Virus record (IMG/VR): IMGVR_UViG_2737471849_000004
Coordinates: 1-39,239 of that record
Strand: one strand, 5' to 3'
DNA: 39,239 nucleotides
Origin: a virus
Taxonomy: Duplodnaviria; Heunggongvirae; Uroviricota; Caudoviricetes
Shown here: positions 8,342 through 35,693 of the stretch, piece by piece
Numbering within the stretch: position 1 is the first letter of the stretch
Layout of the letters: each line of letters opens with the position of its first letter
Translations under genes and position numbers: made by a program
The notes under the pieces: model-generated
The model's database searches: none
What the model was told of the DNA's origin: nothing
Seen by the model: the letters and a program-made list of their open reading frames with translations, nothing else

Positions 8342-8656
8342 TCAGAAGCTATTTGGATTGCTTGGCCATTGCGGCAATTTTGATTCTACTGGGGTGTGTT
8401 TGGGTTTGAGTCCGTTTAAGTAGTCAAGGCGCTCAATGGCGCATTTATACATAGCAATCTGCTCTGATGACATGTCGTCGTATGACATGCCTTTGAACTT
8501 TTTAATTATTGATTCTGCCTCATGTATAAGATGCTTCTTCCTCATGAGTTCAGCTGTATGCTTAGAGCTTACAGGAGATAACTTTGCCCATATGAAGCAG
8601 ATGATTACAACAGCGACTACTATGCCGGGTATAAACATTTGCTGCTTTATCCTCAA
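8342..8656 (-). CDS. Small membrane-anchored protein co-transcribed with cI (candidate exclusion/abortive-infection factor)
   Basis: 104 aa; start overlaps the cI stop; N-terminal TM helix FIPGIVVAVVIICFIWA then a charged soluble domain; followed by a terminator. Confidence 0.6.
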   Translation of the reverse strand: MRIKQQMFIPGIVVAVVIICFIWAKLSPVSSKHTAELMRKKHLIHEAESIIKKFKGMSYDDMSSEQIAMYKCAIERLDYLNGLKPKHTPVESKLPQWPSNPNSF

Positions 8657-9339
8657 ACTTTTGGCAGATCGTCCTGGTCTACGTACCTGGTGTGTTTCAC
8701 AATAGCTGAAACAAAATGCATTTTATCAACTTCTTCAACAGGAAGAGTGATTGGGCGGTGATCACTGTTTATGCTACTAAACTGATAATCACCGTCTCTT
8801 GTTTTGTTCATGATCTTTATCATGTTGTGACCGTCTTTGGTCCTTACAAAGACTTCATCACCTGGATGTACTGGCGTATTTGGTTCAATAACAACATATT
8901 CTCCTGACTGAATCCTTGGCCACATGCTGTCACCCTTAACCTTCAGACCGTAAGCATCTTTATCGCCGCTGTAGATGCTTAACCAACCGGATCTGAATTC
9001 AATCATATCCACTGAGCCATCAACTCCCAAAACGGCTTCACCAATTACCGGAACAAAACCCGCACGAACGTTACCCGCAAACTCAAGATGGTCCGTAGCT
9101 CCAGCTTTACCATCTGCAAGCATGTCCATCCATCCGCGTGGGAGATTAAAAGATTTTTCAATTAGTTCCATCATATCGTCAGCAATGCGTTTTTTTCCGC
9201 TTTTTCCTTCCGGATACAGCATTCTGGAAACGTATGATGGTTCCCTTTCTATTCGACGAGCCAACTCTGAGGCCTTTCCATTACAGAATCGGTCTCTTAT
9301 CTCTATCAGCCTTAGTCGTCTTTGTTCGTATTTATCCAT
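8653..9339 (-). CDS. cI: CI-type prophage repressor (HTH + S24 LexA-like peptidase domain)
   Basis: 228 aa; C-terminal GDSMWPRI...VVIEP and a conserved Lys typical of S24 autocleavage domains; flanked by operators. Confidence 0.85.
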   Translation of the reverse strand: MDKYEQRRLRLIEIRDRFCNGKASELARRIEREPSYVSRMLYPEGKSGKKRIADDMMELIEKSFNLPRGWMDMLADGKAGATDHLEFAGNVRAGFVPVIGEAVLGVDGSVDMIEFRSGWLSIYSGDKDAYGLKVKGDSMWPRIQSGEYVVIEPNTPVHPGDEVFVRTKDGHNMIKIMNKTRDGDYQFSSINSDHRPITLPVEEVDKMHFVSAIVKHTRYVDQDDLPKV

Positions 9340-13802: not shown

Positions 13803-14164
13803 CAATGGATTATTCACAGTTAAGTGATTTTGAAATTAACAAGCGAGTGGCAATTTGCTGTGGATTTGCTCCCGAAGATTGCGAAATCGCAAAGTTGGGA
13901 ACATCAATCGTTGGTGTTGAGTGGGATGACGAAACTGGTTATGCAATAAAAACGGTTGATTACTGTAAAAGCCCATCAGACGCAGAGCCGATTATCGTAG
14001 AGAACAGAATTGGCATTATTCCAGCGCCAGAAAATGGATTATGGAAGGCAGCGCATAGAAAAGTTGGCAGTGATAGTACCCCATATCATATGACTCAAGA
14101 TGAAAACCCACTCCGCGCTGCCATGATTGTCTTTCTCATGATGCAGGATGCCAATAATGCTTAG
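13799..14164 (+). CDS. Nin-region protein (NinX/DUF2591-like)
   Basis: Internal start [23 protein letters not shown]...; ATGA-coupled to ninE. Confidence 0.45.
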
Positions 14165-14333
14165 CCCATCCCAATCCCTTCAATACCAGAAAGAAAGCGT
14201 CGAGCGGGCTTTAACGTGCGCTAACTGCGGTCAGAAGCTGCATGTGCTGGAAGTTCACGTGTGTGAGCACTGCTGTGCAGAACTGATGAGCGATCCGAAT
14301 AGCTCAATGTACGAGGAAGAAGACGATGAGTGA
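14157..14333 (+). CDS. ninF: NinF
   Basis: [44 protein letters not shown] matches lambda NinF. Confidence 0.85.
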   Translation: MLSPSQSLQYQKESVERALTCANCGQKLHVLEVHVCEHCCAELMSDPNSSMYEEEDDE

Positions 14334-30355: not shown

Positions 30356-31813
30356 ATGGCTACTTGGCAAGGAACAAACGGCGGATTGTTGGCTGGTATC
30401 GGCGGCGTCAACTCAAACGCTCCGAGCGTAAATGACATCGGCAATACGCTTCAGATTATCAGGCAGAACAATGATATTGAGCGTTCAGGCGCTAACAATG
30501 TTGGGCTGACTGCTTTGCAAGGCCTTTCAGGTATTGCTGGGGTGTTTCAGCAGGAAAAGCAGGCTCAGCGGCAGAAAGAATTTCAGCAGGCATACGCTAA
30601 TGCTTATGCGTCTGGTGATCGCGGTGCTTTGCGTCAGTTGGCTACTCAATATCCAGACCAGATTGAATCCGTTCGTAAAGGCATGGGATTCATTGATGAA
30701 GAGCAGCGTAATTCTATCGGCACCTTAGCGGCTGGCGCACGCCTTGCGTCATCGTCTCCAGAAGCAATGCAATCATGGCTGCAAAACAACGCCAAGGAAC
30801 TGACTCGCGTCGGTGTTGACCCTAACAGCGTTGCTCAGATGTATCAGCAGAATCCTTCAGGATTTGGTGAGTTTGTTGATCACCTTGGAATGGCCGCGCT
30901 TGGTCCGATTGATTACTTCAATGTTCAGGACAAGATGGCTGGTCGTGAAATTGACCGAGGCGGGCTGGCAGAGACAATCCGCAGCAATCAGGCCAGCGAA
31001 GCACTTCAGGCGAGAGGGCAGGATATTAGCCGAGCAAATGCGTTAACGTCAGCATATGCACCAACAGCAGCAATGCAGAATTACAATCAGTACGCGCAAA
31101 TGTTAAAGGTGGATCCAGAGGGGGCGGCGGCATTTGCGGCAGCGGCTGGAATTAATACAAACGCCAAAAAATTAATGAGTGTTAGAGAAAACGATGATGG
31201 CACTGTCACAAAATACTACACAGACGGAAGTGAAGAGCAGGGAAAACTAAACCAGCCAATATCTGGAGATGGGTTTCGTCCAATAGCTTTGCCAACAGCC
31301 CAAAAGATCATGGAAAAGTCGCCAGAAGGGGCTAAAAAAGCTGCTGGATTTGCATACAGGGTTAGGGATGCTCTTGATTCAATGGATACACTGAAAGACC
31401 AGCTTAGCCCACAGCGAGTGGCGGTCATTAATAATGCTTTGGGTAATGGGACGCTGGCTAACTTAACGCTCAGCCCAACAGAGCAGCAATACGTTGTTAA
31501 TGCTAATGACGCAATAATGGCAATACTCCGTCAGGAAACAGGGGCAGCTATCGTACCTGCTGAAATGTCAAAATATTATCAAATGTATTTCCCTCAGCCT
31601 GGCGACTCCACAAAAACCATTGATACCAAGCGCCGGAAGATGGAAAACCAGTTCAATTCGCTGAAAGCTGCTTCTGGTCGAGCTTATGATGCTTTGCGGG
31701 TTATTTCAGCAGTTGACAGAGGAACTTCTTCTTCGTCGCAGACATTGCCGCAATCTGAGCAGGTATCACAGCCAGCAGCCAGCAGTAACTTTTCTTCACT
31801 ATGGGGTGATTAA
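30356..31813 (+). CDS. Ejection protein (P22 gp20-like)
   Basis: 485 aa at the gp20 position. Confidence 0.65.
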
Positions 31814-33996
31814 TGGCTAAAGCATGGAAAGATGTTATCGCCTCTCCACAGTATCAGGCGTTAGCACCAGAACAAAAAGCGCAGGCTCAGGAGCAATACT
31901 TCAATGAAGTCGTTGCCCCGCAAGCCGGAGAAAATGCAGAGCAGGCAAAACAAGCGTTTTACTCTGCTTACCCTAGAGGTCTGCTAGAGAAGGGTAATAT
32001 TGACATTCACAATCGGCCTGTTGTTAAAAACTCTGATGGCAGCATTAGCACTGTGCGGAGCATGTCTACCAATATAGATGGTAGAGAGGTGCTGATTCCT
32101 ACCGTTAGTGATGATGGTCGCATTATGTCTGATGATGAAGCTATTGATAACTTCATGAGGACGGGAAAGCATCTTGGTATGTTCGACAATCCTGACGATG
32201 CCACTGCATATGCGGAGAGTCTGCACAACCAGCAAGCTGATGAATACCTCCCTAGGAAGAATCAAGCTACACAACAGCCTGTACAGCAAAGTACACAGGC
32301 AGCGCCACAGCAGCAAGGAGGTTTCATTTCCGACCTTGGCAATGCCGCGGCTGAAACTGGTCGCGGACTGGTGCAGGCTGGTCGTGGTCTGGTAAACATA
32401 CCATTTGACGTATTGCAGGGTGGTGCAAGTCTGATTAATGCAATCAGTCAGGGGCTTGGTGGGCCAAAAGTATTGGATGATGTCTATCGTCCTGTCGATC
32501 GACCGACAGACCCTTACGCGCAAGCCGGTGAAACAATTGGTGGGTATTTAGTTCCAGGAGTTGGAACGGCAGGAAGCATGGCTATTGGATCGCTGGCAGA
32601 GGCCGCAAATCAGAAAGGCGATTTCGCACAAAATGCAGCTAAAAATGCCGGAGTTAACCTTGCCGCTCAGGGTGTTCTTTCCGCAGCTGCAAAGGGAATA
32701 GGGCGTGGAATAACGGCTATAAAAGGTGATATTGCGCCAGAAGTGGCGAAGAAAATTGCCACATCAGAATCGATGGGCGTGACACCAATGACATCTGATG
32801 TTATCCCGCCGAAAAATGCTTTCACTCGCGGCCTTACTCAGGATGCCGAGGGGGCTTTGCTCGGGACGGGTTCAAAGCGAGCAGAGCAATATGCAACGCG
32901 GAGTAAGCTGGTAAGCAATTATTTTGACCGTTTTGGTGAGTACAACCCTGATGATGTGGTGAAATCTCTGACCACCACGTTAAGGGGGCGGAAGGATGCC
33001 GCTGGCGCTGTTATCAATGACGTCACCAATAAAATGGGTAATGCCGCAGTTGATACCACAAATACCATGAATGCTCTGAATACAGCGATCGCAAGACAGG
33101 AACGGCTTGGGACGTCTGCCAATCAAAGCCTGCTTACATCCTTGCGTAACCTACGTGAAGAATTAGCAAACCCTGCAACTGATTTGGATGTTACGTTTGA
33201 TCTCTTGCGTCAGCACAGAACAGCATTTAGATCTAATGTTCAGGGAGATGCTATGGTCTTCCCCAACCAGGCAAAAGCAGCTACCAATATGGTAGAGAAT
33301 GCAATGTCAAAAGACCTTCGTAACGCAGTTGCTAAAAACCTCGGTGCATCAGACGCAGCAAAATACCTTAAAGCAAATTCCGATTATGCAAACGTTTATA
33401 ATAAGGTGCTTAATAAAAACATTGCCAACAAGCTCAACAAGGCAAGCAGTGAAGCCAGTCCTGAACTTATAAATACCGTTGTATTAAGCAGAAAACCATC
33501 TGACGTGAAACGAATCTGGAGCGCACTGGATGATAAGGGGAAAGATGCTATGCGTGCAGCTTACGTCAGCAAAATAGCGGAAAAGGCCGGGGACTCTCCA
33601 GCCAAGTTCATCACTGAAGTTAATAAGCTGAAATCTCAGTCAGGCGGTGAAATTTACAACACTATTTTTTCTGGAAAGCACATGAAAGAGCTTGATGCTC
33701 TTCATGAAGTTCTACAGCAAACAGCAAGGTCAGACACCGCAAATGTAGTAACTCAGACGGGGCAATCGCAAGCCAACAGGATAAGGACGATTGGCGCAAC
33801 TGCGACCCTTGGCGTATCAATGGGGCTTGAGGCTGGTTTTGGTGCAATGATGCGCTTGTATGAGTCCAAAGCAGCAAGGAATATGCTTCTTCGTTTGGCA
33901 AACACCAAAGCAGGAACACCAGCCTATGAAAGAGCGATAAATAACGCTGCGAATGCCATCAGACCGCTGTTTGCTACTGAGGCAACACAGCAGTAA
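31813..33996 (+). CDS. Ejection protein (P22 gp16-like), extended
   Basis: 727 aa at the gp16 position; long Ala/Gly-rich central region. Confidence 0.65.
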
Positions 33997-34020
33997 CGTA
34001 TGGGAAATTGGATTCAATCG

Positions 34021-34410
34021 CTAACATTTTCTTTTTACTTTTCCAACAAAAGCTTTGGTTGAATCCATATTTCCATAACCGGAAATGGTTTTTGACATTA
34101 AAACTGTTCCAGTAGGATGTATTACCCATGAGTCGATAACGCGTTGAGTTTCGCCATTCGCGCCGATTCCTATGATGGAGTTTTTAGACAATGCTTTGTA
34201 AGCCATGCCGCCCGCATCTGTCCCAGAATATGTGATGCTGGCATCTTCACCGTTTGTCTTAATGATGAATGTTCCACTAAAACCATCTTCTTCCGGATGG
34301 AAATTATTTCGTTCTGAATAGCTTATTCCGCGCATATCTCCAACGACCCAGCACTCTGCTGTAGCCCCAAAAGATATGAATAAGAACATAGCAGTAAGAA
34401 ATTGCTTCAC
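34021..34410 (-). CDS. Secreted (periplasmic) protein of unknown function, accessory
   Basis: GTG start 6 nt after AAGGAGG; signal peptide MKQFLTAMFLFISFGATA then about 110-aa beta-rich domain with Cys near both ends. Confidence 0.6.
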   Translation of the reverse strand: MKQFLTAMFLFISFGATAECWVVGDMRGISYSERNNFHPEEDGFSGTFIIKTNGEDASITYSGTDAGGMAYKALSKNSIIGIGANGETQRVIDSWVIHPTGTVLMSKTISGYGNMDSTKAFVGKVKRKC

Positions 34411-34440
34411 ACCAACCTCCTTAGTTTTTCGCAGGATACC

Positions 34441-34806
34441 ATGAAAAAAGTTAACATTGGAAACGTACCAAAGATGCTCGTTCCGCTCTTTGAGAGCGGT
34501 ACAATTGTGTTTTGTAGAGACTTTCCAGAATGGCAACGCCTGCATCAAAAACTTGGCGTTGACGTGCATGACTCGGACGCCAACGGAGCGTCTCATACAA
34601 TGAGTAGCGAGAATGGTGTTTTGCATGTGATAGGCGTGTTCAATGGCAAACTATCTACTATTGCCCATGAGTGCGCTCACATGGCATTCGATATCTGCTC
34701 AAGGGTAGGTGTTGATGTTGAACCAGGAAGAGCCAACGAGACTTACTGCTACTTAATGAGCAGGCTTGTTGAGTTCTGCGAGCGACATATCAAAAAGCCG
34801 GAGTGA
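34441..34806 (+). CDS. HExxH-motif small protein (putative zinc-dependent metallopeptidase-like), accessory
   Basis: About 121 aa from MKKVNIGNVPK...; contains TIAHECAHMAFD plus several Cys; divergent from the secreted-protein gene 30 bp away. Confidence 0.5.
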   Translation: MKKVNIGNVPKMLVPLFESGTIVFCRDFPEWQRLHQKLGVDVHDSDANGASHTMSSENGVLHVIGVFNGKLSTIAHECAHMAFDICSRVGVDVEPGRANETYCYLMSRLVEFCERHIKKPE

Positions 34807-34812
34807 CCCGGC
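34790..34812. terminator. Bidirectional intrinsic terminator
   Basis: Hairpin gccgg-agtgac-ccggc flanked by an A-run upstream and T-rich sequence downstream. Confidence 0.55.
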
Positions 34813-34819
34813 TTGATTA

Positions 34820-34999
34820 TTACTTTTTGCTGTCTGGAGTTCGCTTATCCAATACCCAGCCATGACCTGGCTTTGTTGTTGGCGGAAGCCTTTCGTTGTC
34901 CTTGACGGTGGCAAAATTATCTTTCTTACCTCCGCGCGGGCCAACTTCTTGGTATATTCCGCCGTTTTTTCCTGTGTTTTCACCTGGTTTTTTCGCCAT
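34820..34999 (-). CDS. Small hydrophilic Gly/Lys-rich protein (YjzC-like by recollection), moron
   Basis: 59 aa MAKKPGENTGKNGGIYQEVGPRGGKKDNFATVKDNERLPPTTKPGHGWVL...; GAGG upstream; bracketed by its own putative promoter and terminator. Confidence 0.5.
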   Translation of the reverse strand: MAKKPGENTGKNGGIYQEVGPRGGKKDNFATVKDNERLPPTTKPGHGWVLDKRTPDSKK

Positions 35000-35109: not shown

Positions 35110-35292
35110 TTAGTCACATTCTATTTCTTTTGTCGAGGTCCATACATAAGGATCTGAGCAAACAACCTCTCCATTTATCATGACGTCATAGCCCATTAGA
35201 TATGAGTTACCACCAACAATCTGAGCGGCTATGACGCTAATGCTGGCGGCGCAGGCTGCACCAAAAACGAAACCAATTAATATATTTTTCAT
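35110..35292 (-). CDS. Small membrane/secreted protein with C-terminal Cys pair (toxin-like architecture), moron
   Basis: 60 aa; hydrophobic segment [25 protein letters not shown] then [27 protein letters not shown]; own terminator. Confidence 0.45.
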
Positions 35293-35483
35293 TTTAATTC
35301 CAAATAGTTATAGGATGAAAGTTATGACCATAGAAGAACGTCTGAACAACATTGAGTTGAACCAAACCCTGCTTGACCAGCGACTTTCAGATCTTGAGCT
35401 TAAAGATCTAGATGCGCAAATATCAGAAGCAGAAGCCAAGCTCTCCAGCCTAAACCACCGCAAGAAGCAAATCCGCAACAGAA

Positions 35484-35693
35484 TTACTCAGGGACGCGGA
35501 AGCTGTTGAGGTGGGATGCTAGGTCTCTATCGTTAAAATCAAGGCTGCTAATCATTTCATTGTAAATAGCGTTTTTATCTTCCATTGGCAGTCTTGAGTA
35601 AACCAGACACAGAGCATATTTCAGGGAGTTTAGCTCTTTCTCTAGCTCTTCCTTGCTTGATGTTTTTGACTTAATAAACTGTTTTTTATTCAT
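35484..35693 (-). CDS. Hypothetical protein translationally coupled to mnt (69 aa)
   Basis: ATG overlaps the mnt stop (ATGA); charged, helical composition. Confidence 0.45.
   Translation of the reverse strand: MNKKQFIKSKTSSKEELEKELNSLKYALCLVYSRLPMEDKNAIYNEMISSLDFNDRDLASHLNSFRVPE

What the first reader, a model, noticed from the sequence alone, without database searches (positions are those of the whole stretch)
34021..34806. Divergent accessory pair between ejection genes and immI: secreted protein plus HExxH-motif protein
In the slot where P22 carries sieA, this phage has two back-to-back genes unrelated to virion assembly. One (minus strand) has a strong RBS, a signal peptide and a ~110-aa beta-rich domain with Cys near each end. 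The other (plus strand) is a ~121-aa Cys-rich protein with an HECAH zinc-metallopeptidase-type motif. Their starts are only about 30 bp apart, so each promoter must lie inside the other's coding sequence, which suggests tight co-regulation. A periplasmic protein paired with a cytoplasmic metalloprotein in a prophage variable region is a plausible exclusion, anti-defense or conversion module. I do not recognise either protein as a described family.
Basis: partly seen in the sequence, partly recalled or inferred. Interest (0 to 1): 0.75.

Follow-up and report, generated by a model that had tools for sequence, protein, structure and literature searches.

The report
Hex-like exported protein in sieA slot
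The two back-to-back genes are real but are not a unit: one is a secreted relative of the phage 434 exclusion protein Hex, placed where P22 carries sieA, and the other is hkcC, a conserved gene of unknown function that P22 itself also has.

Summary
The sequence features are confirmed, but the pair is not a module.

**Minus-strand gene (34410→34021, 129 aa).**
- It has a GTG start, an AAGGAGG ribosome-binding site and a Sec signal peptide.
- The mature 111-aa domain is a nine-strand β-barrel with invariant first and last Cys.
- It is a full-length homolog of phage 434 Hex and Sf6 gp38 (hhalign 99.85%).
- Hex is made in lysogens and is reported to be needed to exclude P22.
- The gene sits behind the same 85-bp promoter/RBS/GTG cassette that drives sieA in P22 (83/85 identical) and hkcB in HK620 (85/85). 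Homology breaks exactly at the start codon.
- In other P22-like prophages the same mature domain carries a different signal peptide. There it follows mnt and a Rap1a-family periplasmic immunity gene.

**Plus-strand gene (34441–34806, 121 aa).**
- It is hkcC, 99% identical to an ORF in P22 and HK620.
- It has a small zincin-like fold with invariant HExxH and N-E.
- It lies sense to the late operon.
- Its recurrent partner across diverse prophages is the convergent orf59a, not the minus-strand gene.

**Best reading.** The minus-strand gene is a prophage-expressed periplasmic exclusion or immunity factor (inferred). hkcC is a late-transcribed putative metalloprotein of unknown role. Interest is moderate.

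The parts
34021..34410 (-). Gene A: Hex-family exported protein, 129 aa, with a GTG start. The stop codon is at 34021-34023.
   Evidence: ORF and translation. phrog_2651 match, E 2.9e-61. hhalign of the family profile against 434 Hex gives 99.85%, E 1e-30. AlphaFold model pLDDT 93.5 with nine β-strands.
34357..34410 (-). Signal-peptide codons (residues 1-18, MKQFLTAMFLFISFGATA). Predicted cleavage is before E19-C20.
   Evidence: Family N-termini. The same mature domain carries a different signal peptide in L018, and the DNA joint lies exactly at the A-E-C codons. The published sHex fragment starts at the equivalent residue.
34411..34495 (-). Conserved expression cassette: putative PsieA, RBS AAGGAGG (34416-34422) and the shared GTG.
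   Evidence: 83/85 identical to the 85 bp upstream of P22 sieA and 85/85 to HK620 hkcB. Emek shares the last ~40 nt. Homology ends at the start codon. That 85 bp plus sieA gave exclusion in single copy.
34441..34806 (+). Gene B = hkcC, 121 aa. A small zincin-like putative metalloprotein.
   Evidence: 99.2% identical ORF in P22, HK620 and many others. phrog_1365 match, E 1.7e-39. AlphaFold model pLDDT 91 with β-β-α-β-β-α-α order. BFVD fold hits include proteins named SprT-like or Metalloprotease.
34666..34680 (+). HECAH motif (H76, E77, H80) on helix 71-89.
   Evidence: Invariant in 52 relatives. Helix assignment from the model.
34735..34740 (+). Invariant N99-E100 at the start of helix 100-116. 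E100 is a candidate third metal ligand, 20 residues after H80.
   Evidence: Alignment and model. The geometry was not verified.
34795..34814 (.). Bidirectional hairpin terminator shared by hkcC and orf59a. It overlaps the hkcC stop codon.
   Evidence: Terminator scan on both strands. Annotated as tORF59A / t mnt in HK620 and P22.
34820..34999 (-). orf59a homolog (59 aa), convergent with hkcC. It is the recurrent partner of hkcC.
   Evidence: 98% identical to P22 Orf59a. Homologs 63-78% identical lie convergent after hkcC relatives in Klebsiella, Pasteurellaceae, Rodentibacter and Salmonella prophages. Weak YjzC-like Pfam hit.
31813..33996 (+). Context: gene 16-type ejection (DNA transfer) protein, the last late gene before the 'ant moron'.
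   Evidence: ORF. Annotation of matching records.

Best explanation
The finding covers two independent genes of the variable 'ant moron' of a P22-like prophage.

**Gene A, shown.**
- It is a member of the Hex family (phage 434 hex, Sf6 gene 38).
- It is made as a precursor with a Sec signal peptide.
- The predicted mature 111-aa product is a small up-and-down β-barrel. Its first strand (Cys20) and last residue (Cys129) carry the family's two conserved cysteines.
- It is the cargo of a conserved cassette of putative promoter, RBS and GTG. That cassette carries sieA in P22 and hkcB in HK620.

**Gene A, inferred.**
- It is expressed at a low level from the prophage, exported to the periplasm and disulfide-stapled.
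- There it protects the lysogen at the envelope.
- Most likely it blocks genome delivery by superinfecting P22-like phages. This matches the exclusion phenotype reported for hex and the role of SieA at this locus.
- It may act alongside, or like, the Rap1a-type periplasmic immunity protein with which it is paired in other elements.

**Gene B, shown.**
- It is hkcC, a conserved flank gene that P22 itself also has.
- It has a compact fold shared with many small phage proteins, a few of them named SprT-like or Metalloprotease.
- It has an invariant HExxH helix and an invariant N-E 20 residues later.
- It lies sense to the late operon.
- Across unrelated prophages it travels with the convergent orf59a.

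**Gene B, inferred.** It binds a metal and is transcribed by late read-through. Its substrate and role are unknown.
For: **Identity of A.**
- phrog_2651 match.
- tblastn hits to 434 'repressor protection protein', Sf6 gene 38 and related phages.
- hhalign 99.85% over the full length, including the signal peptide and both Cys.

**Export of A.**
- The family N-termini are Sec-type.
- Two unrelated signal peptides are joined to the same ~95% identical mature-coding DNA, exactly at the cleavage-site codons.
- sHex begins at E43, the residue after ANS|.
- Full-length Hex was toxic when overexpressed.

**Fold of A.** pLDDT 93.5 with nine strands. There are weak calycin hits only.

**Prophage expression of A.**
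- The upstream 85 nt are 83/85 identical to those of P22 sieA.
- That stretch sufficed for sieA function, and sieA is transcribed weakly in lysogens.
- Hex lies on the PRM transcript in lysogens.
- In L018-L020, A follows mnt on the same strand.
- In a Pantoea prophage a homolog is an antisense moron.

**Exclusion.**
- hex is reported as required for excluding P22.
- The three alternative cargos of the cassette are all envelope proteins. [quoted passage not shown] HkcB has an N-terminal hydrophobic anchor (read directly from the sequence). A is secreted.

**Rap1a pairing.** Pfam Rap1a hits with E 1e-14 and 1e-13, immediately upstream of A-family genes in two unrelated contexts.

**Gene B.**
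Against: - No experiment bears on gene A itself.
- The exclusion phenotype of hex is known to me only through the citing paper. Its step and mechanism were never defined.
- The only biochemical study assigns Hex a cytoplasmic role, blocking RecA-stimulated repressor cleavage.
- Rap1a adjacency points as much to protection from type VI amidase effectors as to phage exclusion.
- The sigma-70 scan found no consensus promoter in the cassette, so PsieA remains 'putative'.
- Disulfide formation and barrel closure were not checked in coordinates.
- For B, no solved zincin was recovered by Foldseek (best E 0.13).
- Pfam SprT-like matches to B cover only the HExxH stretch and fall below the cut-off.
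- Whether E100 or the invariant C86/C103 complete a metal site in B is unknown.
Confidence: 0.5

Rival explanations
1. A and B form one divergently transcribed, tightly co-regulated two-gene module, a periplasmic protein plus a cytoplasmic metalloprotein that act together.
For: The starts are 30 nt apart. The putative promoter for A lies within B's first codons. Both genes are non-structural.
Against: - The homology break sits exactly at A's start codon, and hkcC flanks sieA, hkcB or A interchangeably.
- A occurs without hkcC.
- hkcC relatives occur without A in at least 9 other contexts.
- Only 21 of the 355 complete E. coli genomes that match the 1001-bp query (window 33900-34900, which spans A and hkcC) match at least 80% of it.
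- Late read-through can transcribe hkcC.
Confidence: 0.05
2. A acts as published for Hex. It is a cytoplasmic factor that binds the prophage's LexA-like repressor and protects it from RecA-stimulated autocleavage, which stabilises lysogeny.
For: hex deletion raised spontaneous induction 30-fold in recA+ cells but not in recA- cells. A Hex fragment inhibited cleavage of the 434 and P22 repressors in vitro. The window encodes a repressor-like gene (8653-9339).
Against: - The whole family has Sec signal peptides and a conserved Cys pair suited to the oxidising periplasm.
- Two different signal peptides are kept on the same mature domain.
- The active 'sHex' was a guanidine-purified half-barrel lacking the signal, used at micromolar excess.
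- The paper never considered export.
- Family members also occur in non-phage islands with no repressor nearby.
Confidence: 0.1
3. A is an orphan periplasmic immunity or fitness factor unrelated to phage exclusion. For example, it could neutralise a type VI-delivered or bacteriocin-type cell-wall or membrane toxin, or bind a small ligand, as calycin barrels do.
For: - A Rap1a-family immunity gene lies immediately upstream in P22-like prophages and in a Silvania island.
- Family members sit in integrase, IS and toxin-antitoxin islands.
- The weak fold resemblance is to ligand-binding calycins.
Against: The hex exclusion phenotype. The placement behind the sieA cassette. No type VI effector gene was seen in the neighbourhoods listed (by their Pfam labels only). 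No relation to the MliC lysozyme-inhibitor barrel.
Confidence: 0.25
4. B is an ImmA/IrrE-type anti-repressor protease that belongs functionally to the neighbouring immI (mnt-arc-ant) switch.
For: It has an HExxH motif with a downstream 'ANE' that is reminiscent of M78 peptidases (from my own knowledge). It lies next to immI in this window.
Against: - No Pfam or NCBIfam hit to Peptidase_M78.
- Proteins named IrrE appear in BFVD only at E 0.03-0.1 with TM ~0.3.
- Relatives sit in lysis-terminase, head, tail or replication regions with no Mnt, Arc or XRE partner.
Confidence: 0.04

Closest known systems
Phage 434 Hex ('heterologous exclusion'; annotated 'repressor protection protein') and Sf6 gene 38 protein
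   Same: - Full-length homology: 27% identity, BLASTP E 3e-12, profile 99.85%.
- The same signal peptide, x-Cys start and C-terminal Cys.
[quoted passage not shown]
   Different: - Hex lies downstream of cI on the PRM transcript. A lies in the ant moron behind the sieA cassette.
- A is only 27% identical to Hex.
- No phenotype has been tested for A.
- The published Hex mechanism is cytoplasmic, which conflicts with the export signals.
P22 SieA superinfection exclusion protein
   Same: The same genomic slot, the same orientation, and the same 85-nt upstream region, RBS and GTG. Both are envelope-directed proteins of a P22-like prophage.
   Different: - There is no sequence similarity.
- SieA is a three-helix inner-membrane protein with the motif FxRYPxEAxxFNK.
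- A is a soluble secreted β-barrel with no membrane span after the signal peptide.
HK620 HkcC / the unannotated P22 hkcC ORF (phrog_1365)
   Same: Gene B is this gene: 99.2% amino-acid identity, the same position and the same terminator.
   Different: Nothing material. The function is unknown in all of them.
SprT-like / minimal zincin metalloproteases
   Same: - HExxH on a helix that follows a small β-sheet and a backing helix.
- An invariant N-E 20 residues after the second His. This is the same spacing as thermolysin H146-E166 (from my own knowledge).
- Fold matches to phage proteins named SprT-like or Metalloprotease: E 9e-5 to 1e-3, TMq 0.54-0.70.
   Different: - Pfam SprT-like scores are 12-15 bits against a cut-off of 25.6, and cover only the motif.
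- There is no conserved third His.
- No solved zincin was recovered.
- Metal binding and catalysis are untested.
Rap1a/Tai4 type VI immunity proteins, and periplasmic exclusion proteins such as P1 Sim (from my own knowledge)
   Same: They are small signal-peptide-bearing periplasmic proteins that protect the producer from incoming agents. Rap1a-family genes directly precede A-family genes in two contexts.
   Different: A is not homologous to Rap1a, which is all-α (from my own knowledge), or to Sim. The association is by neighbourhood only, and it is absent from this window.

Membership tests
Hex family (434 hex / Sf6 gp38; phrog_2651) | Full-length sequence homology | tested here: met
   phrog_2651 E 2.9e-61. 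hhalign 99.85%, E 1e-30, 124 columns. BLASTP 27% identity, E 3e-12.
Hex family (434 hex / Sf6 gp38; phrog_2651) | N-terminal Sec-type signal, Cys at position +2 of the mature protein, and Cys at or near the C-terminus | tested here: met
Hex family (434 hex / Sf6 gp38; phrog_2651) | Location downstream of cI on the PRM transcript | tested here: not met
   Gene A lies between gene 16 and immI. The slot after the window's repressor holds an unrelated 104-aa ORF. No second family member was found in the window.
Hex family (434 hex / Sf6 gp38; phrog_2651) | Exclusion of heterologous phage (P22), or inhibition of RecA-stimulated repressor cleavage | not testable with these tools
   These phenotypes are known only for 434 Hex.
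SieA | Position between genes 16 and 9, behind PsieA/RBS/GTG | tested here: met
SieA | Polytopic inner-membrane protein with the FxRYPxEAxxFNK motif, and sequence homology | tested here: not met
   Homology stops at the start codon. The motif is absent on reading A's sequence. A's model is a β-barrel.
HkcC (phrog_1365) | Sequence identity and synteny with HK620 hkcC / the P22 ORF | tested here: met
Zincin metallopeptidases (gluzincin / SprT-like PF10263) | HExxH on an α-helix, conserved across the family | tested here: met
Zincin metallopeptidases (gluzincin / SprT-like PF10263) | A third metal ligand in the correct geometry | tested here: inconclusive
   N99-E100, C86 and C103 are invariant.
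Zincin metallopeptidases (gluzincin / SprT-like PF10263) | Reaches the Pfam gathering score, or matches solved zincin structures | tested here: not met
   12-15 bits against a cut-off of 25.6, over the motif only. PDB Foldseek best E 0.13, with no zincin recovered. PDB profile searches were empty. Only predicted phage proteins named SprT-like matched.
ImmA/IrrE (Peptidase_M78) | Profile match and an adjacent cognate repressor | tested here: not met
   No Pfam or NCBIfam hit. IrrE-named folds at E 0.03-0.1. Contexts lack a repressor partner.
MliC/PliC lysozyme-inhibitor barrels | Profile similarity to E. coli MliC | tested here: not met
   hhalign probability 2.6%, over the signal peptide only. 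No Pfam MliC hit in 69 members.

The most novel reading that the evidence does not exclude
Hex-family proteins, including this one, are Sec-exported, disulfide-stapled periplasmic β-barrels. Alone or with Rap1a-type partners, they neutralise incoming envelope-breaching machinery, such as podovirus ejection-protein conduits or muralytic enzymes. That would be a soluble periplasmic superinfection-exclusion or immunity mechanism distinct from the membrane protein SieA. The published cytoplasmic anti-RecA role of Hex would then be secondary or artefactual.
Probability: 0.3. Interest if true: 0.65.

Novelty: new member of a known kind. Interest (0 to 1): 0.42.

Why it matters
- It would give the classical but mechanistically obscure hex exclusion gene a cellular address, the periplasm, and a testable mode of action.
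- It shows that the sieA position of P22-like prophages is a cassette with a fixed promoter, RBS and start codon, and with interchangeable envelope-protein cargos.
- It links that cassette to Rap1a-type immunity genes, which suggests that prophage 'ant morons' collect periplasmic protective factors.
- It corrects annotation. RefSeq starts gene A at Met8, which removes the charged start of the signal peptide, and hkcC is unannotated in several P22 records.
- It identifies hkcC-orf59a as a small mobile convergent gene pair of unknown role.

Tried and rejected
**Database searches that gave nothing useful.**
- Pfam, NCBIfam and PADLOC gave no real hit for either protein.
- The lantibiotic hits to B (E 0.03-0.14) are a chance HEC...C pattern.
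- PDB sequence-profile searches were empty or noise.
- Foldseek against the PDB gave nothing for B and only weak calycin matches for A.

**Relationships tested and rejected.**
- HkcB is not related to A.
- MliC is not related to A.
- An outer-membrane barrel for A is unlikely. One phage record labels its homolog PagP. However, the strands are short, the C-terminal residue is Cys rather than aromatic, there is no PagP Pfam hit, and the fold hits are soluble barrels.
- ImmA/IrrE for B was rejected.

**Other checks.**
- The longer 201-aa reading of A from ATG 34626 is rejected. All homologs, and the sieA and hkcB cargos, start at the shared GTG.
- The sigma-70 scan found no promoter for either gene near the start codons.
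- The genome-collection scan for A relatives returned only 3 loci.
- GC content of A (0.41-0.43) is only slightly below that of its neighbours.
- Literature searches found nothing on hkcC function or on export of Hex.
Full report
**1. Observation**

The window region 34021-34806 holds two ORFs with diverging starts.

Gene A runs on the minus strand from a GTG at 34410 to a stop at 34021-34023 and encodes 129 aa. AAGGAGG lies five bases upstream of the GTG. A longer in-frame ORF from ATG 34626 is not the gene. All relatives, and the unrelated genes that share the upstream DNA, start at this GTG.

The product begins MKQFLTAMFLFISFGATA|EC and ends KRKC. Gene B runs on the plus strand from 34441 to 34806 and encodes 121 aa, with five Cys and HECAH at residues 76-80. 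Thirty bases separate the start codons.

**2. What gene B is**

- DNA from 34408 to about 35108 is 97-98% identical to P22, HK620 and some fifty relatives.
- In HK620 the ORF is annotated hkcC. In P22 the same ORF is 99.2% identical at 13861-14223. It is often left unannotated, and the 'P sieA' promoter and 't mnt' terminator features lie on top of it.
- The ε34 genome paper lists the P22 'ant moron' genes as sieA, hkcC, 59a, mnt, arc and ant, with hkcC and 59a of unknown function. It also describes this region as the most fluid part of the late operon.

Gene B is therefore not in 'the slot where P22 carries sieA'. It is the conserved flank of that slot.

**3. What gene A is**

- PHROGs places A in phrog_2651.
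- tblastn finds 96-97% identical copies at the same position in Salmonella phages Emek and ST-35. It also finds 27% identical full-length matches to Sf6 gene 38, HK446, HK633, Sf101 and the phage 434 'repressor protection protein', which is Hex.
- A profile of 69 relatives aligns to 434 Hex over 124 columns at 99.85% probability, E 1e-30. The alignment includes the signal peptide and both cysteines.
- In 434 and Sf6 the gene lies just downstream of the repressor, in the rex position.
- The Hex paper shows that the PRM transcript of lysogens extends through hex. It recounts that Salmonella carrying λimm434 excludes P22 whereas hex- lysogens do not, hence 'heterologous exclusion'.

**4. Export of gene A**

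- The 40 family N-termini printed are classical Sec signals followed by x-Cys.
- Cys20 is invariant and the C-terminal Cys is at least 90% conserved.
- The strongest evidence is mosaic. In P22-like prophages L018-L020 the mature-coding DNA is about 95% identical to the window from the A-E-C codons to the stop and beyond. The signal-peptide codons and everything upstream are unrelated (MKLIIAMAFFVFSFSVSA instead of MKQFLTAMFLFISFGATA). Two different export signals have been kept on one mature domain.
- The stable 'sHex' fragment of the 2013 study begins at E43 of their 158-aa reading. That is exactly the residue after the predicted ANS|EC cleavage site.
- Full-length Hex arrested growth when overproduced. 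The paper never considered export.
- The AlphaFold model of A has pLDDT 93.5. It shows a signal helix followed by nine antiparallel strands.
- Foldseek finds only weak resemblance to calycin barrels (CRABP2, an FABP-like protein, avidin, lipocalin), with E about 0.01 and TM about 0.4.
- A is not related to the MliC lysozyme-inhibitor barrel.

**5. The cassette**

I aligned the upstream regions of gene A, P22 sieA, HK620 hkcB and Emek orf129. All four share ...TGGTATCCTG..AAAACTAAGGAGGTTGGT-GTG, and similarity stops at the start codon.

| Compared with gene A's 85 upstream nt | Identity |
|---|---|
| P22 sieA | 83/85 |
| HK620 hkcB | 85/85 |
| Emek orf129 | only the last ~40 nt shared |

Leavitt et al. 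showed that sieA with just 85 bp of upstream DNA, in single copy, excludes P22 by seven orders of magnitude. They also found that sieA is weakly transcribed in lysogens and rises on induction.

The slot is therefore a fixed expression cassette with swappable cargo:
- SieA, a polytopic inner-membrane protein.
- HkcB, which has an N-terminal hydrophobic anchor (read directly from the sequence).
- Gene A, which is secreted.

All three cargos are envelope proteins.

**6. A is not tied to hkcC**

- Emek has A next to a DUF4065 gene and orf161, and has no hkcC.
- L018-L020 have mnt, then a Rap1a-family gene, then A on one strand, with a 15-nt gap before A and no hkcC.
- The Rap1a assignment is solid: Pfam PF18602, E 1e-14, 55 bits against a cut-off of 27.7, over the whole profile. 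The protein has its own signal peptide.
- A second Rap1a-family ORF (E 1e-13) lies immediately upstream of the A homolog in a Silvania integrase island.
- Other family members sit in varied settings:
  - beside a cI-like repressor in Lelliottia;
  - after a small lipoprotein in Trabulsiella;
  - as an antisense moron between the terminase and lysis genes in a Pantoea prophage;
  - in integrase or IS islands in Serratia and Affinibrenneria.
- Of 5426 complete E. coli genomes, 355 match the 1001-bp query (window 33900-34900) at all. Only 21 match at least 80% of it, which is the A+hkcC arrangement.

**7. hkcC in more detail**

- The family has 278 members, in Enterobacterales and Pasteurellaceae, with more distant phage relatives.
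- H76, E77, H80, F83, C86, G90, N99, E100 and C103 are among the invariant residues.
- The model (pLDDT 91) has the order β-β-α-β-β-α(HExxH)-α(N-E). From my own knowledge, this is the order of a minimal zincin, and the H80-E100 spacing equals thermolysin H146-E166.
- Sequence evidence is sub-threshold. SprT-like hits in 15 of 52 members score 12-15 bits over the motif only.
- No solved structure matches.
- In the viral predicted-structure library, 27 proteins match at E < 1e-3 (TMq 0.55-0.83 among them). Most are uncharacterised, and three hits at E up to about 1e-3 are named SprT-like or Metalloprotease. Proteins named IrrE appear only at E 0.03-0.1.

Relatives lie sense to the surrounding operon:

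| Host or phage | Position |
|---|---|
| ST64T, L, ε34 | between Rz and dec/terminase |
| mEp044 | after the lysozyme gene |
| Yersinia and Salmonella prophages | between spanin and terminase |
| Rodentibacter | among head genes |
| Klebsiella | before the tape-measure gene |
| Pasteurellaceae | after replication gene P |

In the last three hosts and in one Salmonella locus, a convergent 59-61-aa ORF follows. It is 63-78% identical to the window's orf59a. The recurrent partner of hkcC is therefore orf59a, and the two share the bidirectional hairpin at 34795-34814.

PLate transcripts read through the ant moron into gene 9. hkcC is therefore most simply a late read-through gene and needs no promoter inside A. 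None was found.

**8. Mechanism**

Shown:
- the family memberships;
- the export signals;
- the cassette structure;
- the contexts.

Inferred:
- A is expressed from the prophage, exported and oxidised.
- A acts in the periplasm to protect the lysogen.
- I favour a block of genome delivery by P22-like phages, for two reasons. hex has that genetic phenotype, and the cassette's known cargo, SieA, acts on the gp20/gp16 conduit.
- The Rap1a pairing keeps open a role as immunity against cell-wall-targeting effectors, or against virion muralytic enzymes.
- The published cytoplasmic role of Hex is hard to reconcile with the export signals.
- For hkcC I can commit only to a metal-binding protein, probably a hydrolase, that is made late. 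Its link to orf59a suggests an enzyme-partner or toxin-antidote-like pair. This is untested.

**9. Verdict**

A is an accessory, probably protective, periplasmic protein at the sieA slot. The pair is not a module, and both families were already catalogued.
- Novelty: A is a new member of a known but poorly understood kind (Hex) in a new locus. hkcC is already known.
- Interest is moderate. It rests mainly on the re-reading of Hex as a periplasmic protein and on the cassette and Rap1a association.

Noticed in passing
window 34441-34999; loci L014, L016, L021, L023: hkcC and the convergent orf59a (59 aa, Gly/Lys-rich, weak YjzC-like hit) recur together. They sit in head, tail, lysis-terminase and replication regions of unrelated prophages. 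They look like a small mobile two-gene unit that shares a bidirectional terminator.
   Followed up: partly
L018 4650-4985 (also L019, L020); L011 5646-5987: Rap1a-family (type VI amidase-immunity) genes with signal peptides lie directly upstream of Hex-family genes. One context is downstream of mnt in P22-like prophages. The other is a Silvania integrase island that also carries an SNF2-type helicase.
   Followed up: partly
L004 2420-2905 (phage 434 hex): The published 'sHex' fragment starts at E43 of the 158-aa reading. That is the first residue after the predicted signal-peptidase site ANS|EC. The paper's 158-aa ORF includes 24 residues that overlap cI upstream of the likely true start.
   Followed up: yes
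L009 3122-3490 (RefSeq NZ_CP051706.1): RefSeq annotation starts gene A at Met8 (122 aa). This skips the shared GTG and the charged start of the signal peptide.
   Followed up: yes
window 8342-8656 (-): A 104-aa ORF with an N-terminal hydrophobic helix overlaps the stop of the C2-like repressor gene (8653-9339). It occupies the rex/hex position. It has no Pfam hit.
   Followed up: partly
window 35110-35292 (-), 35231-35509 (+) and 35484-35693 (-): Three small ORFs lie between orf59a and the mnt-like gene. The first has a hydrophobic N-terminus and three Cys. A second aligned piece of the window query to Emek ends in this region. Two of the three were scanned against Pfam and gave no hit.
   Followed up: partly
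L003 2742-3615 (phage Emek): Where this window has hkcC, Emek has a DUF4065 gene overlapping a 161-aa ORF. DUF4065 is the SocA/Panacea-type antitoxin domain (from my own knowledge), so this may be a toxin-antitoxin pair in the ant moron.
   Followed up: no
phage Huey PQ850609.1 25928-26323; protein P0165: Two odd names are attached to Hex-family members: 'PagP' in phage Huey and 'Organic solvent tolerance-like N-terminal domain' in UniRef for an Affinibrenneria protein. Neither is supported by Pfam scans of the family.
   Followed up: partly
phage records SE1, ST160, UAB_Phi20, Phi75, ST-32: In the hkcC protein search, some P22-like phage records show two separate matching places. Other P22-like phages (ST64T, L, ε34) carry a ~38-40% identical relative between the lysis genes and terminase, so these records may hold both. 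The second places were not examined.
   Followed up: no
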